A stretch of 64,000 nucleotides of DNA, taken from the NCBI GenBank assembly GCA_001779095.1, contig MFJD01000004.1, forward strand, positions 173,031 through 237,030. The letters are read 5' to 3'. Positions 8,336-56,625 of this stretch are shown here, in pieces. A program made the position numbers and the translations under genes. Below the pieces are notes generated by a model. It was not told the DNA's origin and did no database searches. It saw only the letters and a program-made list of their open reading frames with translations. The number at the start of each line of letters is the position of its first letter. Position 1 is the stretch's first letter. This DNA comes from Candidatus Gottesmanbacteria bacterium RBG_16_52_11. Its GTDB lineage: Bacteria > Patescibacteriota > Microgenomatia > UBA10105 > UBA927.

Positions 8336-10480
8336 ATGTCCGCCCGGCTGAAAAAACTGATCATCCCCATGCTGCCGTATCTGTTTTTGTTTGTTGTGGC
8401 TCTGGTTATTTTCCATCCGGCATTAAACCTCAAGCCGGGAACATACCTGTTCGGATGGGACACGATGGATCAGGAATACTTCATCAAATCATTCTTCGGC
8501 GAAAACATCCGGCGCGGGGTTTTCCCGTGGTGGAATCCGTACGCGATGGGCGGGTATCCGTTCGCGTCAACCATCGACGCGGATACTTTTTATCCTCCGG
8601 TTTACCTGTTTGCGCTGCTGCCCGTGACGCAGGCGATTTCGTGGTATTACTTCATACACCTCCTTTTGGGATTAGCCGGCATGTACATCCTCTGCCGGAG
8701 ATGGTTTTCCGTCATACCGGCGCTTTTGGCAGCAGTCACTTTCATGTTTTCCGGACTATTTACCAGAATTCTGGCCGGGAGCTTCAGCATCGTCCCGTAT
8801 GCATACCTGCCGTGGTTAATGTTCCTGTTCCTCAGATCAGTTGCGGCAAATTCCCGGCGTGCGGTCTTGCGGGCTGCTGCCGCAACCGGAATTATCGGGG
8901 CGCTCCAGGTCACCGGCAGCAATCCCATCACGGTAATCTATAGCCATCTGGCGCTGATATTTGCAACCGCAGTGCTTTCGGTTTCCCGCAGAAGTCTCCG
9001 TCCGGTCCTCATCTATATATCTACCGCAGCGCTGATCGTCGGCCTGTCGGCTGTCACCACCGTGCCGATGCTTGAGGGGATATTAAATTCAGTCAGAAGC
9101 AACCTGACCTATGAATGGGCAGCGTCAGGGACGCTCCGATTTGCTGACCTCAGGCAGATGTTCCTACCCGTATTGTGGTCGTACCGGCCGGATATGAATG
9201 ATTATATGCCGTTTATCGAAAGTCCCTGGTACATCGGCATCCTGCCGCTTGTCCTTGCCGTGTCCGGACTTTTTTATGGGGTTGTTGCCGTCCTGAATTC
9301 CCTGCGCCACCGGGGGAAACGCAATACCGGTCCGGCCGTTATCATTTTCGGGATTCTGGCAGTTTTCGGGTTCTGGATGGCGTTGGGAAACCAGGCACCA
9401 TATGACTTATTCGGTCTTCTCTGGCGGTCCGTGCCGCTGTTCAGATTTATCAGGGTACCGATCAAGATTATGGTACTTTTCGTCTTCGGGATGGCAGGTT
9501 TGGCGGCATATGCAACCGAGTTGATAAGAAACCGGATTATCCGGACAGCAATTCTTTTCATAACCGTAATTGAATTAACCATATTTGCCCGGCAGTACGT
9601 CATTATTGCACTGGTTCCGGAAACCAGACACGATCAGGAGCTGGTAGCGACGCTGAAAAGCTCACAGGGGGATTACCGGATCCATCCCAATTACGTCAAA
9701 AGTTACCGCCTGGGGTATAGCTGGGACCTTAACGCCGCCAGCACCTACCGCTTTTTCTCAACCAGCGGCAATACCACATCGATTCCGGCTAACTATAACG
9801 ACTTATTCTATGCCCTGTTCCCGGGAACCGATCCGCTTTTCAGCGCCACCATGAATCAGATGCCCTGGGTGGGGTTGGATTCAGCCGGGATGGACATCCT
9901 GAATGTCAGATACATCCTGGTGCCGCGGGAAACTGAACTGGCGGAGCCCCATTATTCGCTGGTAATCGACAATCCGTCCCGGTGGTTCAGGCTGTATCGT
10001 AATAACCGGGCCTACCCCAGGTTCCGGCTTCTCAGCCGGGCTGCCGTCTACCCTGACCGGGCGGCTATGCGCCGGGCAATCGAAACCGGAAACGCCGATT
10101 TATCAGATGCCGTTTACCTGACCGAACGGGACGCCGGTGCATTGGGGACAGTTGCGGACTGTCCGTCCGCCAGTCCGGGAACAGTTTCTGTCGATGACTA
10201 TGACATATCCCGCATCAGGCTCAAAGCCGATGCGGTGTGTGATACTTACCTGACGACCGGTGAAACCATGTATCCGGGATGGTTGGCGGCAGTCGACGGA
10301 AAACGGGTGCCTATGGTTGAAGGCAATCTGGCACTGCGGACCCTGAAGATACCGCAGGGCGTTCATACGGTGGATATGTGGTACGATCCGCGTATTTACC
10401 GGATTGGGGGAGCAGTCAGCCTGGTGACCCTGATTGTCCTGGTTTTACTAAACCGAAAGCTTGGTTTTAAAGGAAATTAA
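8336..10480 (+). CDS. YfhO-like polytopic membrane glycosyltransferase (GT-C fold)
   Basis: 714 aa. N-terminal YLFGWDTMDQEYF..FPWWNPY and C-terminal GETMYPGWLAAVDGKRVPM..NLALRTLKIPQGVHTVDMWY motifs are paralogous to the 1804 and 17904 genes. Confidence 0.75.
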   Translation: MSARLKKLIIPMLPYLFLFVVALVIFHPALNLKPGTYLFGWDTMDQEYFIKSFFGENIRRGVFPWWNPYAMGGYPFASTIDADTFYPPVYLFALLPVTQAISWYYFIHLLLGLAGMYILCRRWFSVIPALLAAVTFMFSGLFTRILAGSFSIVPYAYLPWLMFLFLRSVAANSRRAVLRAAAATGIIGALQVTGSNPITVIYSHLALIFATAVLSVSRRSLRPVLIYISTAALIVGLSAVTTVPMLEGILNSVRSNLTYEWAASGTLRFADLRQMFLPVLWSYRPDMNDYMPFIESPWYIGILPLVLAVSGLFYGVVAVLNSLRHRGKRNTGPAVIIFGILAVFGFWMALGNQAPYDLFGLLWRSVPLFRFIRVPIKIMVLFVFGMAGLAAYATELIRNRIIRTAILFITVIELTIFARQYVIIALVPETRHDQELVATLKSSQGDYRIHPNYVKSYRLGYSWDLNAASTYRFFSTSGNTTSIPANYNDLFYALFPGTDPLFSATMNQMPWVGLDSAGMDILNVRYILVPRETELAEPHYSLVIDNPSRWFRLYRNNRAYPRFRLLSRAAVYPDRAAMRRAIETGNADLSDAVYLTERDAGALGTVADCPSASPGTVSVDDYDISRIRLKADAVCDTYLTTGETMYPGWLAAVDGKRVPMVEGNLALRTLKIPQGVHTVDMWYDPRIYRIGGAVSLVTLIVLVLLNRKLGFKGN

Positions 10481-11258: not shown

Positions 11259-11296
11259 TATAAATAATCGGAGCGGGATTTGCTCCAACACCATTG

Positions 11297-12790
11297 ATGC
11301 TTATCGATCATTTTGTTACGATTCTGCCTATGCCCGGTGAAACTGTCCGGTATCGTGCGGTTGAGGATCGGCATGCCGTAGAACGGTACATGACGATGAA
11401 GTCAATCGGCCGGGATTTATTCGCCGACAGTCATGTCGTTCAAACAGGCCGGGTAAACAGCACCGATATTGACCTGGCATACCGCTTTATCGCAGATTCA
11501 GCCAGGGAAACCGATTCCGAAGTCTCCGCGTCCTTCTGGTGTCATCTCTTAATTACCCCCGAATTCATTAAATCACTGTCAGAGGAAGCAAACGCCCATG
11601 GAATTTCGGTCGATACGGATGCGATGGTATTTGCCGGAGTACTCCATGACGCCGCCAGGCTGGCATACCCGTCGGCGTACGCCCGGAACGATCTGATCCT
11701 GGACCGGATGCTCAAGGATTTCGGTATCCCCAAATCCGTCATTGATGTCCTGCCCTCATTCATCGAGCGGCTGGAAATTGCCAGCGCCATGGATTTCAGC
11801 GAGGAACAGCTGCGGGGTGACACCGGTCTGAAACACCATCAAAGCGTACTTCTGAATGCGTACCTGAGGAGTCTGACACCGGAGCAGATTATTTTCAACG
11901 TCGCCGATAATCTGTCGAAAAGGAACCATGTCGGCGTCCTGACAATGAATGATCTCAGGACGTACCTTCTGTACCTTGACGGCACGGTGTATAACGGCGA
12001 AAGCGTCTGGCCTTCAGTCAAAAATGCTTTAGCCAAACGCCGGGAGCACGCTTTGTTTCAGTGGCATCTGGTGCGCAGGTCCGTTGACTGGCTGTCTGAG
12101 AACGGCATACCGCTTGATCCGATAAGGGAAAACCTGAAGGATTACGGGGCCCGGCTGGTAGTTGCCGTCAGGCACGGAGAGGTGGAAAATCCCAGAGGCA
12201 TTGTCTACAACCGCGACAGTGTCATGGATCCGGCGGATATTGTCCGTTTAAGCGACGAGGGGCGGATGCAGATCCGGGGATTAGGGGAAAGGCTGTCCGC
12301 CCGCCGGTTCAGGTTTACCGGAATGCTGGTCAGCCCGAACACCAGAACCCTGGAGTCTGCCGGGGAATTAAGCCGTGTTTCCGGAATCACACCGGATACG
12401 GACGACAGGCTGGATGACACGTATGCACCGAATGTCTACCTGTCGGGCATGTCAATGGACCAGTTTCAGGAGGAGTTCAAAGGTGATATCTATGACGTAT
12501 CAGTATGGGGTGCTACTCACGAAAGACCGGAAACGATAGCTGCCAGAATATCCGACGTTGTACGTGATATGCGGGACAGCCTGTCTGCCGGAGAAGCGGG
12601 GATGGTCGTCACGCACGGAGATCCGCTGGCCTGGTTTCTGAATCAGGAGGAAACCGGACAGCTGCCGGCACCGCAAACGCTGAGGAACTCGCGATACCCG
12701 CCGAAAGGGAGCGCTGTCGTATTCGTATACGGACCGGACGACAGTTTGTTTACCAGCTATTTCATACACGGGACCGGGAAGAAGTATTGA
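11297..12790 (+). CDS. fusion protein: N-terminal HD-like domain (tentative) + C-terminal histidine phosphatase (PGM-like, RHG motif)
   Basis: The C-terminal third has VAVRHGEVENPRG (RHGE catalytic motif) and a second VTHGDPLAW histidine motif. The N-terminal half has H..HD-like residues (FWCHLL...VLHDAARL), which is a weak call. Confidence 0.5.
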   Translation: MLIDHFVTILPMPGETVRYRAVEDRHAVERYMTMKSIGRDLFADSHVVQTGRVNSTDIDLAYRFIADSARETDSEVSASFWCHLLITPEFIKSLSEEANAHGISVDTDAMVFAGVLHDAARLAYPSAYARNDLILDRMLKDFGIPKSVIDVLPSFIERLEIASAMDFSEEQLRGDTGLKHHQSVLLNAYLRSLTPEQIIFNVADNLSKRNHVGVLTMNDLRTYLLYLDGTVYNGESVWPSVKNALAKRREHALFQWHLVRRSVDWLSENGIPLDPIRENLKDYGARLVVAVRHGEVENPRGIVYNRDSVMDPADIVRLSDEGRMQIRGLGERLSARRFRFTGMLVSPNTRTLESAGELSRVSGITPDTDDRLDDTYAPNVYLSGMSMDQFQEEFKGDIYDVSVWGATHERPETIAARISDVVRDMRDSLSAGEAGMVVTHGDPLAWFLNQEETGQLPAPQTLRNSRYPPKGSAVVFVYGPDDSLFTSYFIHGTGKKY

Positions 12791-13428
12791 ATTATTTCTT
12801 TGCTTACCGCAAAGGAAACACCACTTTCTTTGCATATCCCGCGAAAGTGGTCAAAGAAACGACACCCCGGGTGAAGATTTTCCGATTGATCTAACCTCAC
12901 TCCGGCTGAGACAGAACCCGCAATCATACCTACAGGTTATCCGTCAAAAATATCCACAGGTCAGGAAAGTCTCATTCCTGACCTGTCAGCCTCCGTTCGA
13001 AAAGATCCATACCGGAAAATCTTCAACGGGGGAATATACCCAGATACCTATATACTTATATACCTATGTCCTGATGAATACTCCCGGCGGGGTTAATACA
13101 TAAATACGTAAATACCTAGATACCTATATATACTTATATACCTAATTCCGCGGAATACTCCCGGCGGGGATTATATCTAGATACCTAAATACTTATATAT
13201 ACTTCCCACCGGTTAGTCAGCCTGCGCTCGGTAAGTCCATTCCGGAAAATCATCAACGGTGTTTGATTGCGCAAGGCCAGGCCTTGCGAAGCTAACGGCG
13301 GGGTTAATACTTAAATACCCATATACCTAGATACCTAAATACTTATATACTTCTCTCTGACCAGCAAGAGGTGTTTATGGTATGATTGATCGATCTAACG
13401 GTCTAACTGAGTCAAGGAGGGAGAGTTT
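12791..13428. repeat. 638-bp repeat-dense, structure-rich intergenic region (repeat family A), homologous to 56316-56625
   Basis: Contents in order:
- hairpins ctttgc-ttacc-gcaaag (12797-12813) and tttctttg..caaagaaa (12825-12859);
- a conserved block gacaccccgggtgaagattttccg...ctcactccggctgagacaga;
- an 11-bp perfect inverted repeat caggtcaggaa/ttcctgacctg (12957-12985);
- two copies of the motif CAGCCTCCGTTCG...GGAAAATCTTCAACGGGG (about 12987 and 13218);
- three copies of CCCGGCGGGGTTAATA followed by ATACCTA/ATACTTA microrepeats;
- a 19-bp perfect palindrome CGCAAGGCCAGGCCTTGCG (13270-13288);
- AGGAGG RBS at 13415. Confidence 0.7.
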
Positions 13429-14352
13429 ATGCCGAAAAAGTTCAAACTGGTGATGATATCCGCGATGTACGAGAACGGCGGCAACACCCTGCAGCGGCAC
13501 CTCGACGGCCATCCGGAGCTTTACGTATACCCCTTTGAATCCCAGCCGGGTACATTCATGGTTCAGGACTTCCTGACCAGCCTGTTTCCCCAGAAGTACC
13601 GCTGGCCGGAGTTCGGCATCAGCGGCGACACCGGCCGGGACTACGAGATGATCATCGATGAGGAATTTAAGGTCCGCGTCAATACACCCCACGTATCCAA
13701 GTTCCGTCATGTATCGGACCTGGGGTGCACTAATGCCGACCGGAAAAAGGTATTCCTGCGGCTGATGAAAGGGAAAGCCCGAACCCGGGCGAACCTGATG
13801 GAGGCCTTTTACCGTTCGACATTCGAAGCCTGGAAAACACGGAAAAACAGCGGCAGGGAAATAGTTTATGTCGGTTACAGCCCGATCATCGGCGTCGACA
13901 GCGACAAGATCATCGCCGATTTCCCGGATTCCATTATCCTTCATATCGTCCGCAATCCCTATGCCGCATATGCCGAAACCAAAAGGCGGCCGGTGCCGTA
14001 TACGCTCTCAAGGTATACCCGGACCTGGAACATCATGCAGCTGGCGGCCCTGAATTTCGCCGGGCAATACCCTAAGAACGTAGTGGTGGTCCGGTTTGAG
14101 GATATGGTGGCGGATAAGGTCGGGTTTTTCCGGAAACTCAGTAAAACACTGGGTATCAGGTATTCCGACACCATGACGTATCCGTCCTGGAACGGGAAAA
14201 AACTTGACCATCAGTACCCGTGGGGAACGATCGAGATTCCGACGGAAAAAGCTAACCGGGAAACGACAAACGAACTAAACAGATCCGAACGCGAGCTGAT
14301 CAGTTCCCAGTCGGGCGTAATCAATAAGGCCTTAGGATACGACAAGTTATAA
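13429..14352 (+). CDS. sulfotransferase-like protein (tentative)
   Basis: 307 aa. A strong RBS (AGGAGGGAGAGTTT) sits upstream. ILHIVRNPYAAYAET resembles the sulfotransferase 3'-PAPS-binding motif (R[ND]PxDxxxS), and a Gly-rich N-terminal loop (SAMYENGGNT) stands in for the 5'-PSB motif. The call is not certain. Confidence 0.45.
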   Translation: MPKKFKLVMISAMYENGGNTLQRHLDGHPELYVYPFESQPGTFMVQDFLTSLFPQKYRWPEFGISGDTGRDYEMIIDEEFKVRVNTPHVSKFRHVSDLGCTNADRKKVFLRLMKGKARTRANLMEAFYRSTFEAWKTRKNSGREIVYVGYSPIIGVDSDKIIADFPDSIILHIVRNPYAAYAETKRRPVPYTLSRYTRTWNIMQLAALNFAGQYPKNVVVVRFEDMVADKVGFFRKLSKTLGIRYSDTMTYPSWNGKKLDHQYPWGTIEIPTEKANRETTNELNRSERELISSQSGVINKALGYDKL

Positions 14353-14358
14353 ATCCGC

Positions 14359-15468
14359 GTGATCCTGAGGCGTAGCGACCTTGTGACAGGAAAATCGGTT
14401 GTGAAAAAACTTCTGCCTAATCCCGATGAACTGCGGAAATACCGACAATGGCAGCGGGGAGTGTTTTTTTCCAAAGCAGACCTTATTCAAAGTCAAAAGT
14501 CAAAGATCAAAAGTCAAAATTACAGCTTAAAAGTCAAAAGTTTACAGAAAGTTGTTAAATATCACCTCAATTCAGAAATCACCCATCTTGAGAAACTTCC
14601 GCGGGCAACGCTGCACGATGTATTCCGGGTGAAAACCCCCGGGGGAAATTATATTGTCAGGACCAGGGCAGAAGAAATCAGGGCGTTTGAGTTTTACCTC
14701 GATGAACTGGCTTTCAAAGAAATGGCAAAACTCGGCGTGCGGTCCTGCGGGGTTGCTGCCGTCGATGTCTCCCGGACTTTGGTACCGTTTGACTATGAAA
14801 TCCTGACGGAGGCTGCCGGGTCATTGATCCACGACAGAGTCAGGATAGGTCGGATACGGCCGGAGGTATTCCGCGGGTTCGGCAGGGTCGTGGCTGTGAT
14901 TCATAATGTCAAAACCCGGAAATACGGTCCGTTTGACATGGAAAAACTGATATCCGGCGGTATCGCTGAAGGTATCTGGCTAACCTGGACAGATTACCTG
15001 CTGGTGAATCTGGATGAGCACGTCCAGACCTGCTTAGAGGCCGGAATATTAACCGACGCCGATGCAATGACGGTCCGCGAAATACTGCCCCGAATCCTTT
15101 TCAGTCTGCCGCCGGTGCCGCCGACCCTACTTCACGGGGATTTAGCCAACCACAACGCTTTCACCGACGGCAAAAGCATCACTGCGCTTGTCGACTGGGA
15201 GGATGCCGTCAGCGGTGATCCGGTGTACGATATCGCCTATTACGGCACGGGATGCTTCGGCCATGATGACTGGCTGAAGGAATTTATTGAAGGATACGTG
15301 GAAAATGCAGCACTACCTGCCGATTTTGAGCGGCGTTATGCCGGGTATTATATCCGGATTGCCCTGGCCAAAGCGGTAGGCCGCCTGAAGCATGGGAAAA
15401 AAGGACGGGGACTGCCCGACAGCGCAAAGCGGATTCAGGAGGGCGTCCGGGCACTCAAATCTGTTTGA
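14359..15468 (+). CDS. APH/choline-kinase-like phosphotransferase (protein-kinase-like fold)
   Basis: LLHGDLANHNAF (catalytic loop HGD...N) and VDWEDAVSGDPVYDIAY (the D[FW]E...D motif) are characteristic. The start is uncertain: the track start is a GTG, and the first about 60 codons contain a TCAAAAG heptamer tandem repeat. Confidence 0.6.
   Translation: MILRRSDLVTGKSVVKKLLPNPDELRKYRQWQRGVFFSKADLIQSQKSKIKSQNYSLKVKSLQKVVKYHLNSEITHLEKLPRATLHDVFRVKTPGGNYIVRTRAEEIRAFEFYLDELAFKEMAKLGVRSCGVAAVDVSRTLVPFDYEILTEAAGSLIHDRVRIGRIRPEVFRGFGRVVAVIHNVKTRKYGPFDMEKLISGGIAEGIWLTWTDYLLVNLDEHVQTCLEAGILTDADAMTVREILPRILFSLPPVPPTLLHGDLANHNAFTDGKSITALVDWEDAVSGDPVYDIAYYGTGCFGHDDWLKEFIEGYVENAALPADFERRYAGYYIRIALAKAVGRLKHGKKGRGLPDSAKRIQEGVRALKSV
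14486..14540. repeat. heptanucleotide tandem repeat (TCAAAAG)n, 5 contiguous copies plus 1 nearby
   Basis: Copies read ttcaaag tcaaaag tcaaaga tcaaaag tcaaaat ... tcaaaag, lying inside the 5' region of the kinase ORF. A 14-mer ATCAAAAGTCAAAA is shared with the 51821-51848 repeat. Confidence 0.7.
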
Positions 15469-20077: not shown

Positions 20078-20986
20078 ATGGCAGTCAGTCTTAATAGGCC
20101 ACCTCAGCTGAACTCCGGACAGCTCCGGGAAAAAGCCCGCGAAGTCGCACTATCGGTACTCGACATATCATACCGCAACCGGATAGGCCACGTCGGATCG
20201 GCGCTGTCGATTTCGGACATACTGACTGCACTTTACTTTACCCGGTTGCGGATCAACCGGAAGACACTTGACCATCCCGAGCGCGACCGCTTCATCCTGT
20301 CGAAAGGCCACGCCGCCGCGGCGCTTTACGCCGCTCTTTACCATCGGGGAATACTGGATAAACGGGAGTTTGATTCGTTCGGGTGTGACGGGGGCTTATG
20401 CGAACATCCGGAAATTAAGGATCCCGGTGTGGAAATGACAGCCGGCAGCCTGGGACACGGGCTGGCGTTCGGAGCGGGAATCGCCCTGGGACTCCGGAAG
20501 AAGTATGCAGTATCCGGTATCCGGTATACAGTATCAAATCCAAAAAATATTCGGAATACTGAATACCGAACACGGAATACTTTCCCTCATGTCTTCGTGC
20601 TGATCTCGGACGGGGAATGCGGGGAAGGATCGGTATGGGAAGCGGCGTTATTCGCCTCCCGGATGGGTCTTGACAACCTGACGGCAATCCTTGACTACAA
20701 CGGCTGGCAGTGTTTCGGGCGCGTCAAAGACATTACGCCGTTGGAGCCGGTCGGGGATAAATGGCGGTCATTCGGATGGGACGCTGTCGAGGTTAACGGG
20801 CATGATACGACAGCACTGGCCGGTGTTTTCCGGAGCCCCAACCTGTCAGGGAAACCCCGGATAATTATCGCCCGGACCGTATCGGGCAAAGGCGTACCGG
20901 CCATCGAAAACCAGCTGATCGGCCACTATAAAGTTTTCACCGAAGCGGAGTACCTTACCGGGCGTCAGGAATTACTCAGCCACTGA
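20078..20986 (+). CDS. transketolase, N-terminal (ThDP/PP-domain) subunit of a split enzyme
   Basis: Carries DRFILSKGHAAAALYA and GSLGHGL..ISDGECGEGSVWEAA..A (the GDG ThDP-binding region). About 300 aa with no Pyr or C-terminal domains, which is typical of tktA-N split genes. It contains an unusual insertion of about 24 aa (nt about 20504-20590) compared with the paralog at 50943. Confidence 0.8.
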   Translation: MAVSLNRPPQLNSGQLREKAREVALSVLDISYRNRIGHVGSALSISDILTALYFTRLRINRKTLDHPERDRFILSKGHAAAALYAALYHRGILDKREFDSFGCDGGLCEHPEIKDPGVEMTAGSLGHGLAFGAGIALGLRKKYAVSGIRYTVSNPKNIRNTEYRTRNTFPHVFVLISDGECGEGSVWEAALFASRMGLDNLTAILDYNGWQCFGRVKDITPLEPVGDKWRSFGWDAVEVNGHDTTALAGVFRSPNLSGKPRIIIARTVSGKGVPAIENQLIGHYKVFTEAEYLTGRQELLSH

Positions 20987-23233: not shown

Positions 23234-23315
23234 GCGCCTATCATAGCACGGGAGGCGGGCCGGTCTTGCACAAGCCGCCGGCTATGGGCGATAATACGTG
23301 CTTGTCATACCTGTT

Positions 23316-24248
23316 ATGAGAGCAGCATTTATCAGGGCGTTGTCCCGTGCGGCGGAGAAGGATTCCCGGATCATGCTGATAACCGGTGATTTGGGATACC
23401 GATATCTCGAGCCATTCGCCGAAAAGTTTCCCGACCGATACCTCAATATCGGGGTTGCGGAAGCCAATCTGGTAACGGTAGCCGCAGGACTGGCGACTAC
23501 CGGTTTCATACCGTTTGTGTATTCAATTGCCACGTTCGCCAGCATGCGGGCATTCGAACAGATCCGCAATGATGTCAGCCTCCAGAATCTGAATGTGAAA
23601 ATTGTCGGCATCGGGGCCGGATTTGCCTATACCAAAGCCGGACCGACCCACCATTCGGTGGAGGATATTGCGCTGATACGGACACTGCCGAATATAACGG
23701 TAATCGCGCCGGTTGATACCAACCAGGCGTACAGCGCGACAATTGCGGCAGCCAAACACCGCGGTCCGGTGTATCTTCGGCTCGGCAGGAATCCGGAAAG
23801 CGGGGTATTTGCCAAACCACCGCCTTTCACCATAGGCAAAGGGACGGTTATTTCCGGCGGAAAGGATATGGCAATCCTGGCAACCGGCACCACTGTGGGA
23901 CTAGCCCATGAAATAGCCGGAAAGATATCCGGAGTGGTAAAATCACCGACCATTGCCGTTTTCCCCTCCATAGTTCCGTTGGATCATGCGCTACTGCGAA
24001 CACTGGTGCGCGGGCACAGAATTTGGGTGACGGTGGAAGAGCACCGCCAGAGCGGCGGATTCGGTACGGCCGTCGGCGAGTGGTTGCTGACTCAGACAGG
24101 CAAAATTCCGCGTCTGGTCAAAGCCGGTGCCCGGGATGCACATTCCCAATTGTCTGCTGAACATAAGGAACTGATGAAGGAAGCGGGCTTAACCACCGGT
24201 GATGTTGCCAGGCGGATACGAGCTACTTTGCGGAGTCAGAGAAGGTAA
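23316..24248 (+). CDS. transketolase, C-terminal (Pyr + C-domain) subunit of a split enzyme
   Basis: Begins MRAAFIRAL (typical of tktB-type subunits). Carries FNIGVAEANLV, FASMRAFEQIRNDV and GPTHHSVEDIALIRTLPN. The track start at 23298 is a GTG, and the ATG at 23316 is preferred. Confidence 0.8.
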   Translation: MRAAFIRALSRAAEKDSRIMLITGDLGYRYLEPFAEKFPDRYLNIGVAEANLVTVAAGLATTGFIPFVYSIATFASMRAFEQIRNDVSLQNLNVKIVGIGAGFAYTKAGPTHHSVEDIALIRTLPNITVIAPVDTNQAYSATIAAAKHRGPVYLRLGRNPESGVFAKPPPFTIGKGTVISGGKDMAILATGTTVGLAHEIAGKISGVVKSPTIAVFPSIVPLDHALLRTLVRGHRIWVTVEEHRQSGGFGTAVGEWLLTQTGKIPRLVKAGARDAHSQLSAEHKELMKEAGLTTGDVARRIRATLRSQRR

Positions 24249-24262
24249 AGGGATTTTAGAGT

Positions 24263-24299
24263 ATTCAGTATGCAGTTTACGGTACAAAGCATACTGAAT
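24263..24299. terminator. bidirectional terminator-like hairpin between convergent genes
   Basis: An 11-bp stem ATTCAGTATGC / GCATACTGAAT with a 15-nt loop lies in the convergent gap between the 3' ends at 24248 (+) and 24364 (-). A second palindrome ACACTCG-A-CGAGTGT sits at about 24338-24352, and a T-run gatttttcc follows. Confidence 0.4.
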
Positions 24300-24363
24300 T
24301 CGTTCACCGTTGACTGATTTTTCCGGAGGTGTCTACCTGGTACACTCGACGAGTGTGCAATTA

Positions 24364-24651
24364 TTACGCGCTTAAGACGGTGGTCAGGCCGGCGCGGATG
24401 GCATCGGTGGCGTGGTGAGTGCGGTCACGGTCTTCGTCTTTGGCATCCTTGTCGATATTATCGAGTTCGGTCATGACTTTGTCATTAAACTCCGTCTGTA
24501 TCTCCGCCTGCTTGGCATCGAATTCATCAATGATCGACTCAAGCTCTTTAAGATCGGAAAGCGTAAGAGCATCAAGTGAAGCCAGAATTTCCACTTTGTC
24601 ATCATCTTCAAAAAGCCCGGTATTTTTTATTTTCTGCTTCAGTTCATCCAT
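24364..24651 (-). CDS. small acidic coiled-coil protein (95 aa), unknown function
   Basis: Rich in D/E/K (EDDDKVEIL, DKDAKDEDRDR). It lies immediately downstream of, and is co-oriented with, the 24655-25431 gene. Confidence 0.45.
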   Translation of the reverse strand: MDELKQKIKNTGLFEDDDKVEILASLDALTLSDLKELESIIDEFDAKQAEIQTEFNDKVMTELDNIDKDAKDEDRDRTHHATDAIRAGLTTVLSA

Positions 24652-30850: not shown

Positions 30851-32368
30851 TCAGGAACCGGCGTTAATATTTTCCCCGGTACGCAGGAGTTTCAAACCTG
30901 CCGGATTAGCGTATAGCCAGAAGTTGTCGTTTTTTCCCCAGAAGTACACCGCCGGTGAATGGTGGATCAGGGTAAATCCTTCGGGATCGTTTTCCGGAAG
31001 CGGAAAATCCAACAGAAGAAGGAAAGGGCGGGATTTGGGAAATGCATTTTTTGCCAGACTTACAGCTACATCGGGCGGAAGTGCATCATTTATCCGTTTA
31101 TGTCGTGCATCGATAACGTTGAACGAACCGGCCCGTTGATACTCCGGATACCAGAATTGCCTGTCATTAAAATAGACCAGCACATCTATGGTCATATAAG
31201 CGTGATATGCGGCAATATCCCAGTTTTCAATTCTGTTCCGTTTAATAAAAGCAGCCATGTCTTTTCCGCCGGAAAACGGATAACGGTAATCATTCACATA
31301 CGAAAATCCCGTGTAAATCCAGGAGATACCCAGGAGGCAACTGAAAACAAAAAGGAATATATTCCAGGATATTCTACGGATCAAATCGCGGTGCTGATGT
31401 TTGCCGGTCATCCAAAGGAAAAATATTATGGATATTAACGTGAGACCATGATGCCGGTTGTATCCGGAATACACATAAACATTGATGTAATAAAAGTAAC
31501 CCCAGGTAACCAGCGCCATCAATGTCAGAGGAATATTGTGTATGAGAATTGGGATAAGAGTGGCCAAACAAATGACAGTTCCAATCCTGATTATTTGGGA
31601 AAAGTAAGGCAACTGAATAATGTCCGGTTTGTCAATCGGGAGTGAAGGGACGATGGATTGACGGAGTACTTTCGTAAACTGGGAAGATATGTCCTGTGGT
31701 TTTGCCCAATTCACCAGCTCGGGATTCGGGGTCAGAAGCGCGGCAGTGAATACACCCTGCGCAACCATCAGCGTCAGCACTGTAAAACGGGCGACATTGA
31801 ATTTCCCATACCGGTACATCTCAAATCCGTAAAGGACCGTCAGAAATCCCGCCGGAACCAAAGAGAAAATATTTGCCTGATACAGGAGTACGATCAGCAT
31901 TCCGTATAAAACGGGTTTATCGAACCGTCTGGGGTAGATGGCGGCGACTGATAACAGAAGTGCCCAGGTCAGGACATAATTGCGCTGAACGACAGCGTAC
32001 TCATATGCCAGGAGATACGAAAAAATAAGCAGGATCTTCACTGGCAGGGGAATATTCTTATTGACAAACAGCAGGAGCCAGATAGCGAATATCGCGATGC
32101 CCGCATGGATAATGCCCATGGTTTCAAACGGCAGACCGGCTTTGGCAAACGGAGACAGGATAACAAACCAGGTAATCGGCACGCCTTCATTGGGAACATT
32201 GGCGACCATTTCCGGAATCGATGCTTCCCTGGCCCACCTCCAGGGATGGGCTTCATCCCGCCAGGGCTCATGATGGGATATGCCGAAAAGTACCAATAAG
32301 GAATAAATGGCAAAAATGATAAAGAGTACAGCATTATTCTTCGGTATATATGGCCGCTTCATGTCCAT
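30851..32368 (-). CDS. 'HEPWRDEAHPW'-family polytopic membrane protein, paralog 1 (putative GT-C glycosyltransferase)
   Basis: 505 aa. The first loop is GISHHEPWRDEAHPWRWAREAS, which has a DE catalytic-loop-like motif as in GT-C enzymes. About 11 TM segments and a C-terminal soluble domain of about 150 aa (YPFSGGKDMAAFIKRN..FWYPEY). Paralogous to the 33513 and 35191 genes. Confidence 0.5.
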   Translation of the reverse strand: MDMKRPYIPKNNAVLFIIFAIYSLLVLFGISHHEPWRDEAHPWRWAREASIPEMVANVPNEGVPITWFVILSPFAKAGLPFETMGIIHAGIAIFAIWLLLFVNKNIPLPVKILLIFSYLLAYEYAVVQRNYVLTWALLLSVAAIYPRRFDKPVLYGMLIVLLYQANIFSLVPAGFLTVLYGFEMYRYGKFNVARFTVLTLMVAQGVFTAALLTPNPELVNWAKPQDISSQFTKVLRQSIVPSLPIDKPDIIQLPYFSQIIRIGTVICLATLIPILIHNIPLTLMALVTWGYFYYINVYVYSGYNRHHGLTLISIIFFLWMTGKHQHRDLIRRISWNIFLFVFSCLLGISWIYTGFSYVNDYRYPFSGGKDMAAFIKRNRIENWDIAAYHAYMTIDVLVYFNDRQFWYPEYQRAGSFNVIDARHKRINDALPPDVAVSLAKNAFPKSRPFLLLLDFPLPENDPEGFTLIHHSPAVYFWGKNDNFWLYANPAGLKLLRTGENINAGS

Positions 32369-32937
32369 GATTTGTGGTAAAGCCGGTTCAGAATAATTAC
32401 AGCATAACCGTTGAAATAGAGGGGGAGTGAGTTTTTTTTTATCATATAAGATTTATCCGATCCGGCAATAATTCCCGAAACGAGCATCCGGTTGATTCTT
32501 TTTCGGATAATCGTATCGGTATTATATGTTTTTAAAATCTGGGCAGCAGTTATTCCCTTGTATCCAGCATTGGCAATGACAGCCAATAGTCTGATTCGGA
32601 TGGCAGATTCAAGAAGTGCTCCGAAGACGACCAGCACATAGACTCCGATAATTAACGTGTAAAGAATCAGAGCACCGATAAGTATTATCAGCTGAGCAAA
32701 TAACGGATAATAGGCCGCAATCGTTATATATCGGAAGAAAGGGAAGTAGATCAGAATCGAAATAACTGACGAGGCGACATACAACATAATAGGCCATATG
32801 TATATTTTTTCCGGCGGCAAAAACCTGACTATTACCAGGTGAATAACATAGAAAATCGAGGAAAACGCCAAGGCGTTTAATACTATCAGCATATCTAGAG
32901 ATAAGTACATATCGGGTATCATCCGCTTGACCTCCAA
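32359..32937 (-). CDS. small membrane protein with C-terminal winged-helix-like domain (type B, 192 aa)
   Basis: Four or five N-terminal TM helices, then GITAAQILKTYNTDTIIRKRINRMLVSGIIAGSDKSYMIKKN (helix-turn-helix plus wing pattern). AT-rich. Paired with the 32919-33443 gene, and homologous in architecture to the 40152-40742 gene. Confidence 0.5.
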   Translation of the reverse strand: MEVKRMIPDMYLSLDMLIVLNALAFSSIFYVIHLVIVRFLPPEKIYIWPIMLYVASSVISILIYFPFFRYITIAAYYPLFAQLIILIGALILYTLIIGVYVLVVFGALLESAIRIRLLAVIANAGYKGITAAQILKTYNTDTIIRKRINRMLVSGIIAGSDKSYMIKKNSLPLYFNGYAVIILNRLYHKSWT

Positions 32938-33443
32938 CCGATGATTCTGCGATAGATTTCAATTAGGATATACAGGAATTTGCCTTTGGTCGAAACAAAA
33001 TAAGCATCTGATTTCCGGCCAACAAAACCCATGTGTATCAGGTCGTTGATCCGGTTAGTCACGAGTTCGGTATCTGAGAACAATTTTTTCAGTTCCTTTT
33101 CAGTAGCCCGTCCGCGCTTTACCAGGTAAAGATATATTTTTGCCGACGGGCTGTAATCGCCGTATACGGCGCTGCCGGAATAAAGGATATAAATGACAGA
33201 TATCACAACGTATATGACAGTAGCCGTCAGCGGTAACGGATACATCAGCAACGCCGCCCAACCTGAGTGACCCAAACGGGGTAAAGTATTAAGTACCATC
33301 CAGTTCAGTAGACCACCTGATATAAAAAACAGAAAAATACTCCGAGGCAGATAAATCCGGCCGGAAGCTGCTGCGTTGTGGATTAGGATATGTGCCCCGG
33401 CCACCAGGAGAAATATGGTGATACTTACAAAAATATCCAGCAT
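32919..33443 (-). CDS. small membrane protein with C-terminal winged-helix (MarR/ArsR-like) domain (type A, 174 aa)
   Basis: Three N-terminal TM helices, then SAKIYLYLVKRGRATEKELKKLFSDTELVTNRINDLIHMGFVGRKSDAYFVSTKGKFLY, a typical wHTH. Counterpart of the 39652-40155 gene. Confidence 0.55.
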   Translation of the reverse strand: MLDIFVSITIFLLVAGAHILIHNAAASGRIYLPRSIFLFFISGGLLNWMVLNTLPRLGHSGWAALLMYPLPLTATVIYVVISVIYILYSGSAVYGDYSPSAKIYLYLVKRGRATEKELKKLFSDTELVTNRINDLIHMGFVGRKSDAYFVSTKGKFLYILIEIYRRIIGWRSSG

Positions 33444-33512
33444 ATTCTGAAAATATTCGTTACTCTAACAGTGTATATGAACCACTATCCAATATGTTCC
33501 GAGGCAGTCAGT

Positions 33513-34982
33513 TCATAAGGCAATACCGCGGCCGTATAACCATAAATTTTCCGTTTCGTTCGACCAGAAGTATGTAGCACCCGATGTATGAAGCAGCGAA
33601 TATCCTGCGGATTCCTCATCCGGGAGGGGAAATGACAGAAGCAGTAATACCGGTTTTCCTGGCGGAAAAGCGCGGTCTATCCGTCGGAAGGCATCATACG
33701 TCGAGAGACTGAAAAATAGTGCGTGATACCGATTATCACTGGTATTATAGTATCCCTTCGCACCGAATTCGGGGTACCAAAACTGTTTGTTATTCAGGTA
33801 CGGCAGAACGGCCAGCCCGTGGGATGCAATATAAGCCACAGTATCATATTTATCCAGGTTATTCTGTTTCAGGTAGGTAGCCATATCCCGGGCACCGGAA
33901 GAAGCATAAGTATAGTCAGCACTGTATATATACTTCGTATACCCGAGGGAAACAGTAAATAATACTGCCAGACTGACGAGTAAAACACTACGAACAGCTT
34001 GTCTCACCGGGGTCAACGGCTTCTGGTCGATTCCGCCTAACCAGAAAAAAACAACAAGATATATCAGCAGCAGTCCGTGGTGCCGGATTGATCCTTTATG
34101 GACGTACAGATTAACATACAACCACCAGGAGACGGTAGAAACGCACAGGATAAAAATATGCGTATTCCTCCAGAGAAAAAGCAGAATACCAGGGATCAGT
34201 AGTGCAGTCAGAATAGTAATAATAGTATTAATTTCCGGGGATAGGAAAGGTGCTGCAGGGTGCTGGGGAAATGAAGGAACAATTGCGTTACGGATGATAA
34301 CCGGCAGCTCAAGTAATGGATTGTCGGGAGGGTAATTAATAATCCGAGCAGCACCGTTTCGGAGAGTCAGAAACGTAAAAGCGGCGCTGACCGATAAAAC
34401 CGCAACAGATAGGATAGTCCCTGGTGCCAGTAATTTTTTCCGTAAGATGTCAAAAACAAATAACATCATGAACACCCCTGCAGGAAGTATACTGAATGAG
34501 TTCGTCTGAAACAGCAAAGAGATAAGCAAACTGTAAAGGATGGGTTTAGTAAGCCTCTTATCATACAGGGCTGCGATGGCAAATGTGAGTAAAACAGTCA
34601 GTACATAATTTCTTGATATAACCGAGTATTCATATGCCATATAGTAGGTAAACGGGAATAGGATTTTCAGAAGCATCGGTAATTTCGCGAATCGGAGTAA
34701 TATGTAGACTGCGGTTATGGCAAGTCCCGCATGGATAAATGACATTGTCAGGTAAGGAAAGCCGGCAGGCGCGAAAGGCTTGAGGATCAAAAACCAAAGT
34801 ATCGGCGTGCCTTCATTCCGGATATCTTCTGAAACAATAATACCAAGCGGAGTCTCCCGGGCTTTCATCCAAGGATGTGCCTCGTCCCTCCAGGGTTCAT
34901 GGTACAGAACTCCGAAGATGATGAGGCTGGCGTATATAAACCAAATTGCCACGTACGGCAGAGTCTTCCGCGGAAATGACAT
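33513..34982 (-). CDS. 'HEPWRDEAHPW'-family polytopic membrane protein, paralog 2
   Basis: 489 aa with GVLYHEPWRDEAHPWMKARETP. Same architecture as the 30851 and 35191 genes. Confidence 0.5.
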   Translation of the reverse strand: MSFPRKTLPYVAIWFIYASLIIFGVLYHEPWRDEAHPWMKARETPLGIIVSEDIRNEGTPILWFLILKPFAPAGFPYLTMSFIHAGLAITAVYILLRFAKLPMLLKILFPFTYYMAYEYSVISRNYVLTVLLTFAIAALYDKRLTKPILYSLLISLLFQTNSFSILPAGVFMMLFVFDILRKKLLAPGTILSVAVLSVSAAFTFLTLRNGAARIINYPPDNPLLELPVIIRNAIVPSFPQHPAAPFLSPEINTIITILTALLIPGILLFLWRNTHIFILCVSTVSWWLYVNLYVHKGSIRHHGLLLIYLVVFFWLGGIDQKPLTPVRQAVRSVLLVSLAVLFTVSLGYTKYIYSADYTYASSGARDMATYLKQNNLDKYDTVAYIASHGLAVLPYLNNKQFWYPEFGAKGYYNTSDNRYHALFFSLSTYDAFRRIDRAFPPGKPVLLLLSFPLPDEESAGYSLLHTSGATYFWSNETENLWLYGRGIAL

Positions 34983-35190
34983 ACCTGTGCCAGTATATAG
35001 AGAATCGAATCAGCGGGAAAGTGACTGTCTCCATTCACAAATGCTACTATCCGCTGACAGTGCATGACCGATAGTGTCAACGGCTTCAACTAATTCTGCT
35101 CCATTCCCACGGGTATTGAGTTTATCTACTGTCTGATCGGGGAGGTTTTGTCAGAACCTGAAAGGGCACGTAACACGTCGGAAGACTCCG

Positions 35191-36678: not shown

Positions 36679-36774
36679 GGTACTTCCGGTATGGAAACTT
36701 CGATTTCCCTTAAAGTCATGATTATACTAACATATAGGATTATGACAGAGAGGAATTGAATTCCATATATACTT

Positions 36775-37518
36775 ATGCGTCTTTATAAAGAGGAAAAACA
36801 CGAAGTCATATATCAGACCCAGGTTAATGATCCGTTTTTTAATTACGTAACGGAACTCATGTTTTCCCGGATGACCGGGCCAGGCCGCCTGCTGGATATG
36901 GGTTGCGGCAGCGGACGTAACATCATATTGGCTGCACAAAGGGGATTTGAGGGAGTCGGAATAGATATCAACAGTAAGTCACTTGAGGTTGCCGGGGAAT
37001 ATGCCAAAAGGATGGGCGTTGATAAGAAGACCAGGTTTATCAGGGCAGACCTGAGAAACCTGACATTGCTGGGATTAGGCAAGTTTGATTACGTGATGAT
37101 GCAGGAAGTGATCGAGCATGTCGAGGATTATCAGGCGCTGATCGATCTGTCATACCGGTTGCTTAAGAAAGGCGGCAGACTACTGTTAAGTACGCCGAAC
37201 GATCCGTCTCAGTGGAACCTGCTGGATGAGTATGCTGAACATGTGCGTCGCTTCAGACCGGTGGAGATACGTAGTGCGCTGAAGGAATTTTCCAGGATAG
37301 AAATATTTACTGTTGGGTTTCCCATACAGAGACTGACGATAACCATCTATGATCTGATGCTGAGAATCCTAAAGCGCCAGCATAAAGCCAAACTGTTCCG
37401 CCGCAACGACTTATTCCACGCGTTGTATTTCACTATAGGCGCTGCAGTCATGAATTTCGACGGACTATTTAACGGAATTCACATGGGAACTACTATAGTG
37501 GCGGGTGCGGAGAAGTGA
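36775..37518 (+). CDS. class I SAM-dependent methyltransferase
   Basis: LLDMGCGSGRN (motif I), DYVMMQEVIEHV and LLLSTPN motifs identify the family. Confidence 0.7.
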   Translation: MRLYKEEKHEVIYQTQVNDPFFNYVTELMFSRMTGPGRLLDMGCGSGRNIILAAQRGFEGVGIDINSKSLEVAGEYAKRMGVDKKTRFIRADLRNLTLLGLGKFDYVMMQEVIEHVEDYQALIDLSYRLLKKGGRLLLSTPNDPSQWNLLDEYAEHVRRFRPVEIRSALKEFSRIEIFTVGFPIQRLTITIYDLMLRILKRQHKAKLFRRNDLFHALYFTIGAAVMNFDGLFNGIHMGTTIVAGAEK

Positions 37519-37577
37519 ATCCCGTAAAATACTAATGGTATACTCGATAATTATCGTCCGGTAATAATTTTATTAGA

Positions 37578-38282: not shown

Positions 38283-38373
38283 TTCCTTAATTATTCGAAC
38301 AGACAGATGTGGGATTTCCCGGTAAGAATAGATTATTTTTACTTTAAAGTAGTATAGCTGTTTTTGAGTTGGT

Positions 38374-39579: not shown

Positions 39580-39651
39580 AAATAAGGGAAAGGATCGTGT
39601 TCGCAATAAATTAATAAGACACTGCGGAGCGTTATTCCGCTGCCAGCATAT

Positions 39652-46440: not shown

Positions 46441-46452
46441 CCGGAAACAAAT

Positions 46453-46500: not shown

Positions 46501-46509
46501 ATTAATGGG

Positions 46510-56315: not shown

Positions 56316-56625
56316 ACCCTTTTTTCGTTGCTTGCTCAAATAACATACTCGATTTCTTTGCTCGTCCAAAGAAATCGGGGAAAGAAAGGACGCCCCGGGT
56401 GAAATTTTTCCGGGATTTCTAATCCTCACTCTGGCTGGGACAGAGAGGATTTATCAGATCCGAATATACAGTTGGTATGGACTTCCCAAGTATTAGGTAT
56501 AGTACTGTGAACAACTAGCCAGCCTCCGTTCGGAAAGGAATCCGCTGAAAAATTCCAACGGGGATTATTATTAAAGGTATGATGTATAATCCTTCTCGGA
56601 AAATCTTCAACGGGGAAAATCTAGT
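56316..56625. repeat. 310-bp structured intergenic region (repeat family B), homologous to 12791-13030
   Basis: Contains hairpin atttctttg-ctcgtc-caaagaaat (56352-56375), where the stem is conserved and the loop differs from copy A. Also the conserved block gacgccccgggtgaaatttttccggg...ctcactctggctgggacaga, and two copies of the CAGCCTCCGTTCGG...CAACGGGG motif. The second copy carries the exact 18-mer GGAAAATCTTCAACGGGG found at about 13014, ending 10 nt before the ATG at 56626. Confidence 0.65.

What the first reader, a model, noticed from the sequence alone, without database searches (positions are those of the whole stretch)
12791..13428. 638-bp non-coding region packed with conserved hairpins, perfect palindromes and nested repeats; a second copy lies 43 kb away
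The 12791-12920 segment aligns at about 75% identity with 56340-56450 (both have tttctttg...caaagaaa hairpins whose stems are conserved and loops differ, then GAC(A/G)CCCCGGGTGAA..TTTTCCG..CTCACTC(C/T)GGCTG(A/G)GACAGA). The motif CAGCCTCCGTTCG-[small stem-loop]-TCAACGGGG occurs four times (about 12987, 13218, 56520, 56591), with an exact shared 18-mer GGAAAATCTTCAACGGGG. Compensatory changes in the internal stem (aagat/atctt versus ggaat/attcc) point to selection on RNA structure. Copy A additionally carries three CCCGGCGGGGTTAATA units, each followed by ATACCTA/ATACTTA microrepeats. These features fit a family of structured cis-regulatory RNAs, small ncRNAs or miniature mobile elements flanking modification genes (sulfotransferase/kinase downstream of A, dehydrogenase downstream of B).
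Basis: seen in the sequence. Interest (0 to 1): 0.7.

Follow-up and report, generated by a model that had tools for sequence, protein, structure and literature searches.

The report
Dispersed palindromic intergenic repeat, CPR genome
The 638-bp gap holds one copy, extended by tandem duplication, of a non-coding hairpin-forming repeat that recurs in at least four intergenic sites of one Candidatus Gottesmanbacteria genome, so it looks like a REP/BIME-type interspersed repeat rather than a gene-specific regulatory RNA.

Summary
Regions A (12791-13428) and B (56316-56625) share a collinear block of about 260 nt. The block has two small hairpins built on TTTCTTTG/CAAAGAAA, then two palindromic units of about 50 nt.

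- The "left" conserved segment is an inverted copy of the CAGCC...CAACGGGG motif, so the two units pair into a hairpin of about 175 nt (z about -7).
- A unit fragment sits in a third gap (24297-24350).
- Part of the rest of region A (13036-13199) is a 77-nt tandem duplication carrying nested 8-nt ATACCTAN arrays; further 8-nt arrays follow at 13306-13350.

The window comes from Candidatus Gottesmanbacteria bacterium RBG_16_52_11 (CPR). A fourth locus (L053) carries a block 85% identical to A. It is tied to the same genome, or the same population, by one identical protein. It lies among unrelated genes that apparently run in the opposite direction.

Across the three full copies, 12 base pairs change on both sides and stay paired (3.9 expected). 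Neither strand folds consistently better. There is no Rfam hit. No transposase, recombinase or reverse-transcriptase domain was found in the large ORFs. No target-site duplication is visible. Distant relatives lack the element.

Best reading: a lineage-specific interspersed mosaic palindromic repeat (REP/BIME/ERIC-like), probably mobile or spread by recombination, sitting at gene 3' ends. Strict REP or MITE membership is not shown. Interest is modest.

The parts
12795..12818 (.). Hairpin HP0a (TTTCTTTG / CAAAGGAAA), starting 5 nt after the stop codon of the upstream gene (TGA at 12788-12790).
   Evidence: helix 1: 87.5% of cells paired, with one both-sided change (TTTCTCTG/CAGAGGAAA in L053).
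12821..12859 (.). Hairpin HP0b (CCACTTTC...GAAAGTGG) with an alternative TTTCTTTG/CAAAGAAA pairing.
   Evidence: helix 2: 92% paired, 2 both-sided changes.
12859..12914 (-). Palindromic unit of the L type. It is an inverted copy of the CAGCC...CGGAAAATCTTCA(A/C)C(G/C)GGG unit.
   Evidence: Unit HMM E=6.7e-10. I1. One search hit at 12866-12884 on the minus strand.
12915..12981 (.). Spacer between the arms. It holds a perfect 12-bp hairpin running 12956-12986, whose 3' arm overlaps the first bases of the M unit. It is conserved in L053 and unrelated in B.
   Evidence: I8. A against L053 z=10.5; A against B z=-0.4 and -0.8 in the two orientations.
12982..13037 (+). Palindromic unit of the M type. 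It pairs with the L unit to form a hairpin of about 175 nt.
   Evidence: Unit HMM E=6.9e-12. Folds (z=-7.9 and -7.3). helix 3: 96% paired, 6 both-sided changes.
13036..13199 (+). 77-nt tandem repeat (2.1 copies). Each copy has a CCCGGCGGGG G-box followed by 8-nt ATACCTAN microrepeats. It also contains the TTCCGCGGAA palindrome.
   Evidence: score 212, 82% matches. (11 hits against 0.02 expected). D1.
13213..13268 (+). Second M-type unit, degenerate and solo.
   Evidence: Unit HMM E=4.7e-13. 94% identical to the L053 M unit over 36 nt (blastn).
13270..13288 (.). 19-nt palindrome CGCAAGGCC-A-GGCCTTGCG.
   Evidence: self reverse match, 94.7% over 19 nt..
13294..13350 (+). Third G-box plus an ATACCTAN array (5.6 copies), ending 79 nt upstream of the sulfotransferase start codon at 13429.
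24297..24364 (-). Locus C: a partial palindromic unit fused to a second module, CCGGAGGTGTCTACCTGGTACACTCGACGAGTGTG. It lies between the transketolase C-terminal gene (plus strand) and what appears to be a small convergent ORF read from the sequence.
   Evidence: Unit HMM E=7e-07. 24323-24357 is 94% identical to L053 8795-8829..
56316..56376 (.). Copy B: a degenerate HP0a, then HP0b (GATTTCTTTG/CAAAGAAATC, 56351-56376). The block starts 4 nt after the stop codon of the methyltransferase gene.
56386..56443 (-). Copy B, L-type unit.
   Evidence: Unit HMM E=1.2e-10.
56515..56570 (+). Copy B, M-type unit.
   Evidence: Unit HMM E=2.5e-10.
56580..56621 (+). Copy B, an extra 3' half-unit carrying the exact 19-mer. 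It ends 5 nt before the dehydrogenase ATG at 56626.
   Evidence: Unit HMM E=8e-08..

Best explanation
Regions A and B, the fragment at 24297-24364, and a fourth copy on another contig are members of one non-coding interspersed repeat family. All are tied to a single CPR genome or population, Candidatus Gottesmanbacteria bacterium RBG_16_52_11.

**Shown: anatomy.** The family is a mosaic of modules:
- two small TTTCTTTG/CAAAGAAA hairpins;
- two types of imperfect palindromic unit of about 50 nt (L and M), in inverted orientation around a variable spacer of about 70 nt, which can fold either as two local hairpins or as one hairpin of about 175 nt;
- a CCGGAGGTGTCTACC...ACACTCG/CGAGTGT module;
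- G-box plus (ATACCTAN)n arrays. In region A, the arrays at 13036-13199 were expanded by a 77-nt tandem duplication.

**Shown: distribution and conservation.**
- Copies sit only in gaps between co-directional or convergent genes, starting at or within about 15 nt of a stop codon.
- Copies apparently occur in both orientations relative to transcription.
- Arm complementarity is kept by both-sided changes between copies.

**Inferred: mechanism.**
- The block behaves like REP/BIME, ERIC or Correia-type elements. It is a non-autonomous DNA repeat, spread either by a structure-recognising enzyme encoded elsewhere in the genome or by recombination.
- It is tolerated or retained at gene 3' ends. When transcribed, its very stable and nearly strand-symmetric hairpin would block 3' exonucleases or read-through.
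- It therefore acts as orientation-independent punctuation between transcription units, not as a sensor specific to the glycan-modification genes next to it.
For: **Repeat family.**
- The unit HMM finds 9 significant copies in 74.5 kb, all intergenic.
- Three full blocks align collinearly.

**Same genome, different context.**
- Six window proteins are exact matches to RBG_16_52_11 proteins.
- The PEGA protein of L053 is 100% identical to A2Z33_02240 of that genome.
- L053 8526-8787 is 85% identical to window 12794-13053. tblastx finds no other homology between the two contigs.
- The ORFs flanking the L053 copy lie on the opposite strand.

**Structure.**
- z-scores are -7.9, -7.3, -3.6 and -6.7.
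- 92.5% of cells are paired. 12 pairs change on both sides, against 3.9 +/- 1.7 in shuffles (0 of 500 reach 12) and 1-2 in slid controls.
- An 8-bp inner helix is AUUGAUCU/AGAUCCAU in A and GGAUUUCU/AGGAAUCC in B.
- No consistent strand preference: the minus strand folds better in A and L053, the plus strand in B.

**Other.**
- Arms are conserved while the spacer is replaced in B.
- Location beside stop codons is read. The PEGA C-terminus stays conserved right up to the stop codon.
- No Rfam family matches.
- The published REP distribution matches: repeats lie mainly between unidirectional and convergent ORFs, downstream of coding regions, with units in opposite orientation that fold into larger structures (PMC3733652 abstract; PMC2817692 abstract).
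Against: - Only four loci are known, all tied to one genome or population. Genome-wide copy number is unknown.
- One metagenome scan with a 19-nt pattern returned a single true hit. The species-representative genome scan returned none. High abundance is therefore unproven.
- No target-site duplication or defined termini are visible.
- No transposase, recombinase or reverse-transcriptase domain was found in the large ORFs of the window or L053. Several ORFs have no Pfam match.
- Units are 45-58 nt, longer than the 20-40 bp of REPs, and lack a consistent GTAG or CGTC tag.
- With three sequences, both-sided changes could come from arm-to-arm gene conversion or from copying a diverged master element, rather than from selection.
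- A and B both lie in one glycan island in the same orientation, which a regulatory reading would also predict.
- The reversed orientation in L053 rests partly on a 173-aa ORF with no Pfam or PHROG match and no clear ribosome-binding site.
- No transcription data are available.
Confidence: 0.6

Rival explanations
1. A strand-specific structured cis-acting RNA, either a leader or 3'-UTR element or a small RNA, that regulates the adjacent glycan-modification operons. The hairpins would form alternative structures: each unit folding on itself, or L pairing with M.
For: - A and B both lie in the plus orientation between plus-strand genes of one glycan island.
- Compensatory changes occur in every helix.
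- Alternative pairings exist: local hairpins of -8 to -16 kcal/mol against the long L:M helix.
- The half-unit in B ends 5 nt before the start codon.
Against: - The L053 copy has unrelated neighbours and apparently the opposite orientation to flanking transcription.
- The locus C fragment lies between what appear to be convergent genes.
- No strand folds consistently better.
- No Rfam match even at E<=10 beyond noise.
- The spacer is not conserved between A and B.
Confidence: 0.12
2. An invertible (phase-variable) DNA switch. The L and M arms would be the inverted repeats recognised by a site-specific recombinase encoded elsewhere. Flipping the spacer of about 70-130 nt would switch surface-glycan operons on or off, as in Bacteroides capsule loci.
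For: - Inverted arms (20 nt, 90% complementary; about 50 nt at 69-76%) flank a short segment upstream of glycan-modification operons.
- The same arms recur at several loci, as expected for a global invertase.
Against: - No recombinase domain was found in the window's large ORFs.
- The spacer has the same orientation in A and L053.
- No above-chance promoter lies in the region.
- The arms are imperfect, and the L-type and M-type differences are fixed across copies.
- The L053 copy is not next to a glycan operon.
Confidence: 0.07
3. A passive relic. A few segmental duplications or recombination scars in a plastic genome region, with hairpins kept only by intra-palindrome gene conversion. No mobility and no function.
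For: - Only four loci are known, and no transposase or target-site duplication was found.
- Tandem duplication is clearly active in region A.
- The L053 copy lies at the edge of about 5 kb of ORFan genes that are absent between the same two genes in a relative.
Against: - Copies at 72-85% identity lie in unrelated contexts on two contigs, each placed exactly at a stop codon.
- Arms are conserved while the spacer is swapped.
- Both-sided changes also occur in the small HP0 hairpins. These are independent of the big palindrome.
Confidence: 0.15
4. Integron attC-like recombination sites marking gene cassettes.
For: Imperfect palindromes placed directly after stop codons, with conserved ends and a variable middle.
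Against: - On the coding strand the 5' arm reads GGGTGAAG and the 3' arm CTTCAAC. That is the reverse of the R''(RYYYAAC)...R'(GTTRRRY) layout.
- The palindrome is 175 nt, outside the usual attC range of 57-141 nt (figure from my own knowledge).
- Most genes in the window have no such site.
- No integrase was found.
Confidence: 0.02

Closest known systems
REP / BIME / REPIN elements (Proteobacteria and others; mobilised by RAYT transposases)
   Same: - Extragenic imperfect palindromes, placed downstream of ORFs between co-directional or convergent genes.
- Two unit types in alternating, inverted orientation, able to fold into a larger hairpin.
- A mosaic with other short motifs, specific to one lineage.
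- Compensatory changes keep the stems paired.
   Different: - Units are 45-58 nt rather than 20-40 bp.
- There is no consistent GTAG or CGTC tag: the L arms carry GACA or GACG, the M arms carry nothing comparable.
- The L-M pair spans about 175 nt, whereas REPINs are about 100 nt (figure from my own knowledge).
- Copy number and a cognate RAYT are unknown.
- The host is a small-genome CPR bacterium. My literature searches found no report of such repeats in CPR.
ERIC/IRU and Neisseria Correia (NEMIS) elements (compared from my own knowledge)
   Same: - Imperfect palindromes of 100-170 bp in transcribed intergenic regions.
- Found in either orientation.
- Conserved arms with variable or inserted internal segments.
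- Proposed roles in mRNA processing, stability or termination.
   Different: - Correia elements have defined terminal inverted repeats and a TA target duplication, which are not seen here.
- There is no sequence similarity to either family.
- Homology between copies extends about 70 nt outside the left arm (the HP0 hairpins) and into the ATACCTAN arrays.
MITEs (miniature inverted-repeat transposable elements)
   Same: - Small and non-coding.
- Inverted arms.
- Several copies in unrelated contexts within one genome.
   Different: - No target-site duplication is visible.
- The arms are not at the ends of the repeated block.
- No related autonomous insertion sequence is known.
Pneumococcal BOX elements (compared from my own knowledge)
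   Same: A modular mosaic (boxA/B/C-like) of short intergenic modules with variable module number, forming stable secondary structures.
   Different: Unrelated sequence and unrelated host. Here the modules include an inverted pair of one unit type plus 8-nt microsatellite arrays.

Membership tests
REP / BIME / REPIN | Small palindromic unit of 20-40 bp (PMC3733652 abstract). | tested here: not met
   Unit HMM hits span 42-58 nt; full units are about 48-55 nt.
REP / BIME / REPIN | Unpaired GTAG or CGTC tag at one end of the palindrome (PMC3733652). | tested here: not met
   There is no GTAG at either end of any unit. CGTC (GACG on the plus strand) occurs only beside the L arm of B. A and L053 have TGTC. 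The M units have no tag.
REP / BIME / REPIN | Extragenic, mainly downstream of ORFs between unidirectional or convergent genes. | tested here: met
   All 9 units are intergenic. The loci lie between +/+, +/+ and, as read, +/- and -/- gene pairs. None lies in the 5 divergent gaps of the window.
REP / BIME / REPIN | Neighbouring units in opposite orientation that can fold into a larger structure. | tested here: met
   There is an L/M inverted pair in all three full copies. Folds have z of -3.6 to -7.9. Helix 3 is 96% paired.
REP / BIME / REPIN | High copy number (more than 100 per genome) (PMC2817692). | not testable with these tools
   Only 74.5 kb of the genome could be read (9 units). The collection scans returned one further locus.
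REP / BIME / REPIN | A cognate RAYT (Y1 transposase) gene flanked by the units. | not testable with these tools
   None was found among the window or L053 ORFs scanned.
MITE | Terminal inverted repeats at the ends of the repeated unit. | tested here: inconclusive
   The inverted arms exist (I1). However, homology between copies continues about 70 nt to the left of the L arm and to the right into the arrays.
MITE | Target-site duplication flanking the element. | tested here: not met
   No direct repeat flanks either the L-M palindrome or the full block in A, B or L053 (flanks read).
MITE | Multiple copies in unrelated genomic contexts. | tested here: met
Integron attC | R'' (RYYYAAC) at the 5' end and R' (GTTRRRY) at the 3' end on the cassette coding strand, with an integron integrase nearby. 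| tested here: not met
   The arm cores are in the opposite order (GGGTGAAG ... CTTCAAC). No integrase was found in the window (and the Pfam calls).
Invertible promoter (inverton) | Both orientations of the segment between the inverted repeats present in the population, with a cognate invertase. | not testable with these tools
   No reads are available. No recombinase domain was found in the window. A and L053 have the same spacer orientation.
Any curated RNA family (Rfam 15) | A match at or above the family's gathering score. | tested here: not met
   There are 0 matches at gathering score in the whole window. Only noise appears at E<=10 in A and B.

The most novel reading that the evidence does not exclude
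The block is a functional, self-contained punctuation or switch cassette specific to this CPR lineage. A strand-symmetric hairpin of about 175 nt, with alternative local folds, would be coupled to short-period A/T-rich arrays. Together they would terminate the upstream unit and set, or phase-vary, expression of the next unit. The variation could come from inversion between the arms or from change in array copy number. This would give an episymbiotic, small-genome bacterium a way to vary its surface-glycan modification.
Probability: 0.1. Interest if true: 0.6.

Novelty: new member of a known kind. Interest (0 to 1): 0.33.

Why it matters
CPR/Patescibacteria genomes are small and streamlined, and little is known about their non-coding DNA. 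I found no paper describing REP-, BIME- or MITE-type repeats in them.

A structured interspersed repeat family here would show that such elements persist even in reduced genomes. It would also give a marker for genome plasticity in the large surface-glycan island, and a candidate for 3'-end or terminator signals in a lineage where none have been described.

It remains one more lineage-specific example of a well-known class. It is seen so far in one genome, so the general interest is modest.

Tried and rejected
- **Rfam.** Gathering-score scan of the whole window, then E<=10 scans of A and B: nothing but noise.
- **tRNA/tmRNA scan.** None found.
- **Promoter and terminator scan of A.** Not above shuffles. 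The only terminator-like site is the spacer hairpin, on the minus strand.
- **Scan of 185,579 species-representative genomes with CGGAAAATCTTCAMCSGGG.** 27 hits, all coding or chance, including three Poribacteria hits in one conserved gene.
- **The same pattern in JGI metagenomes.** 38 hits, only L053 real.
- **Three viral-contig scans with other conserved patterns.** Chance matches only.
- **blastn of the element against plasmids and phages.** No match.
- **Looking for orthologous loci.** The closest homologues of the transketolase and PEGA proteins are only 61-65% identical. Their contigs (L066, L067, L068) contain neither the element nor comparable long palindromes.
- **Exact look-ups of window proteins and of the PEGA protein P0121 (identical to L053's) in the contig index.** Failed, so no more of the source genome could be read.
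- **Strand inference from G-U pairs and folding energy.** No consistent answer.
- **Automatic consensus fold of the seven units.** Uninformative.
- **B spacer as an inverted version of the A spacer.** Rejected.
- **A and B as att-like direct repeats bounding a 43-kb island.** Rejected: they are only 72% identical and there is no compositional step at either site.
- **Replication origin** (one DnaA-box-like ATATCCACA in the A spacer). Rejected: the box is not conserved in L053, there is no skew change, and no dnaA is present.
- **DGR template/variable repeat.** Rejected: no reverse-transcriptase domain was found, the copies lie in non-coding DNA, and I saw no adenine-specific pattern when reading the alignments (not counted formally).
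- **PHROG scan of the ORFan block next to the L053 copy.** Nothing.

Full report
**1. What is in the sequence.**

The gap 12791-13428 lies between a histidine-phosphatase-family gene (11294-12790) and a sulfotransferase gene (13429-14352). It has no ORF confined to it longer than 56 aa. It is the largest non-coding stretch in the window. The second region, 56316-56625, lies between a methyltransferase gene and a zinc-dehydrogenase gene and is among the larger gaps at 310 nt.

- The 19-mer CGGAAAATCTTCAACGGGG is exact at 13013 and 56597. Within 3 mismatches it occurs 4 times, against 0.01 expected.
- A and B align collinearly at 72-74% identity.
- The ATACCTAN microrepeat gives 11 hits against 0.02 expected.
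- The G-box units are real as parts of a 46-nt repeat and a 77-nt tandem repeat.
- The perfect palindromes are present.

**2.

The conserved "left" segment is GAC(A/G)CCCCGGGTGAA..TTTTCCG..CCTCACTC(C/T)GGCTG(A/G)GAC. It is the reverse complement of the CAGCC...CGGAAAATCTTCAACGGGG motif (I1; alignment).

A profile of the unit finds nine significant copies, all intergenic:
- window 12859-12914 (minus strand), 12982-13037 (plus), 13213-13268 (plus);
- window 24297-24350 (minus);
- window 56386-56443 (minus), 56515-56570 (plus), 56580-56621 (plus, half unit);
- two copies in locus L053.

Each full element therefore reads: two small hairpins on TTTCTTTG/CAAAGAAA, an L unit, a spacer of about 70 nt, then an inverted M unit. 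The L and M units pair into a hairpin of about 175 nt. Fold energies lie 3.6 to 7.9 standard deviations below shuffled sequence, on either strand.

Beyond 13036, region A continues as follows:
- a 77-nt tandem duplication (13036-13199) of G-box plus 8-nt array;
- a solo degenerate M unit (13213-13268);
- a 19-nt palindrome (13270-13288);
- a third G-box and array (13294-13350).

**3. Where it comes from and where else it occurs.**

Six window proteins are exact matches to proteins of Candidatus Gottesmanbacteria bacterium RBG_16_52_11, a CPR/Patescibacteria genome from an aquifer, on a 266.8-kb contig.

A pattern scan of the species-representative genomes gave only chance hits. The same scan of JGI metagenomes gave one true hit, L053. 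In L053, positions 8526-8787 are 85% identical to window 12794-13053, and 8795-8836 is about 90% identical to the module at window 24323-24364.

The PEGA-domain protein of L053 is 100% identical to A2Z33_02240 of the same Gottesmanbacteria genome. This copy is therefore a paralogue within one genome or population, not evidence from another species.

Apart from the repeat, L053 and the window share no homology (tblastx). The ORFs flanking the L053 copy are on the opposite strand relative to the element. The downstream 173-aa ORF has no family match, so that orientation is not certain.

The nearest relatives in the protein collections are only 61-65% identical. Their contigs lack the element and lack comparable palindromes. 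In one relative, the PEGA gene and an MFS gene are adjacent and convergent with a 71-nt gap. In L053 about 5 kb of ORFan genes and the repeat lie between them.

**4. Structure conservation.**

On the three-copy alignment, 92.5% of cells in the consensus structure are paired. Twelve pairs show a change on both sides. The expectation is 3.9 +/- 1.7 in column shuffles (0 of 500 reach 12) and 1-2 when the partners are slid.

The clearest case is an inner 8-bp helix of the L:M stem. It reads AUUGAUCU/AGAUCCAU in A and GGAUUUCU/AGGAAUCC in B. The small hairpins also show both-sided changes, for example TTTCTTTG/CAAAGGAAA against TTTCTCTG/CAGAGGAAA.

The L arms are 80-96% identical between copies, but only 69-76% identical to the reverse complement of their own M arm. 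The block was therefore copied as a whole, with two distinct unit types. The spacer of B is unrelated to that of A in either orientation.

With only three sequences, selection on pairing cannot be separated from arm-to-arm gene conversion.

**5. RNA or DNA?**

Nothing favours one strand. The minus strand folds better in A and L053 and the plus strand in B. Wobble pairs give no consistent signal. Orientation relative to the flanking genes appears not to be conserved.

No Rfam family matches. All four loci begin at or within about 15 nt of a stop codon, and none lies in a divergent, promoter-only gap.

This is the distribution described for REP-type repeats: between unidirectional and convergent ORFs, downstream of coding regions, with units in opposite orientation that fold into larger structures (PMC3733652 and PMC2817692 abstracts).

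**6. Interpretation.**

The best-supported reading is a lineage-specific, non-coding, mosaic palindromic interspersed repeat, like BIME/REPIN, ERIC or Correia elements in how it looks and where it sits.

Inferred, not shown:
- It spreads through an enzyme or recombination process that depends on the hairpin.
- Once transcribed as part of a 3' region, the strand-symmetric hairpin acts as a barrier to exonucleases or read-through.

Strict membership fails or is untestable. Units are longer than REPs and lack GTAG or CGTC tags. There is no target-site duplication, and the arms are not terminal. No transposase, recombinase or reverse-transcriptase domain was found in the large ORFs scanned, although several ORFs have no Pfam match. 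Copy number in the whole genome could not be measured.

Rival readings are not excluded, but each has specific evidence against it: a cis-regulatory RNA for glycan operons, an invertible switch, a passive duplication relic, and an attC-like site.

**7. Verdict.**

It is a new member of a known class, in an unusual host, seen in one genome so far. Interest is modest at 0.33.

The decisive step is a scan of the complete assembly and its reads for copy number, a cognate transposase, insertion polymorphism and spacer inversion.

Noticed in passing
window 14489-14541, 51821-51849; L053 10265-10309: Period-7 TCAAAAN arrays (4-8 copies). Two lie in promoter-proximal DNA: upstream of the second transketolase C-terminal gene, and in the divergent PEGA/mreB-like gap of L053. 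The third lies inside the 5' part of ORF 14359-15468, so either that start codon is set too far upstream or the array encodes a Lys-rich stretch.
   Followed up: partly
window 40740-40778, 42532-42556, 46441-46509: Period-9 TAATTATTC / CTAATTAAC arrays lie directly upstream of gene starts. Together with the ATACCTAN and TCAAAAN arrays, this suggests short-period A/T-rich arrays are a general feature of gene-upstream DNA in this genome. A relative's contig (L066 1-40) starts with a period-7 array.
   Followed up: no
window 1-64000: The whole window is one very large glycan biosynthesis and modification island for a CPR genome. It holds several YfhO/PMT_2-like membrane proteins, GT2 glycosyltransferases, seven NAD-epimerase/dehydratases, many SAM methyltransferases, a sulfotransferase, two APH-type kinases, and two split transketolase pairs (20078-20986 with 23298-24248; 50943-51788 with 51935-52957).
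   Followed up: partly
window 31000-40000: A low-GC block (39-45%, against about 52% elsewhere). Most of its ORFs have no Pfam match, so it may have been acquired separately.
   Followed up: no
L053 2696-3895 and 3900-8435: The MFS transporter homologous to L067 1442-2725 is split over four overlapping ORFs in L053, either a pseudogene or frameshift errors. About 5 kb of ORFan genes (no Pfam or PHROG hit) separates it from the PEGA gene, whereas the two genes are adjacent in the relative. The repeat element sits at the PEGA edge of this block.
   Followed up: partly
window 24262-24299: A perfect 11-bp hairpin, ATTCAGTATGC...GCATACTGAAT, lies just after the transketolase C-terminal stop codon. 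It sits immediately next to the unit fragment, and no T-run follows it.
   Followed up: no
window 13379-13399 versus 12884-12930: The 21 nt just upstream of the sulfotransferase ribosome-binding site (GGTATGATTGATCGATCTAAC) repeats GATTGATCTAAC from the L arm. It is also perfectly complementary over 10 nt to CAATCATACC in the spacer (D5 and I12). This could be chance or a long-range pairing.
   Followed up: no
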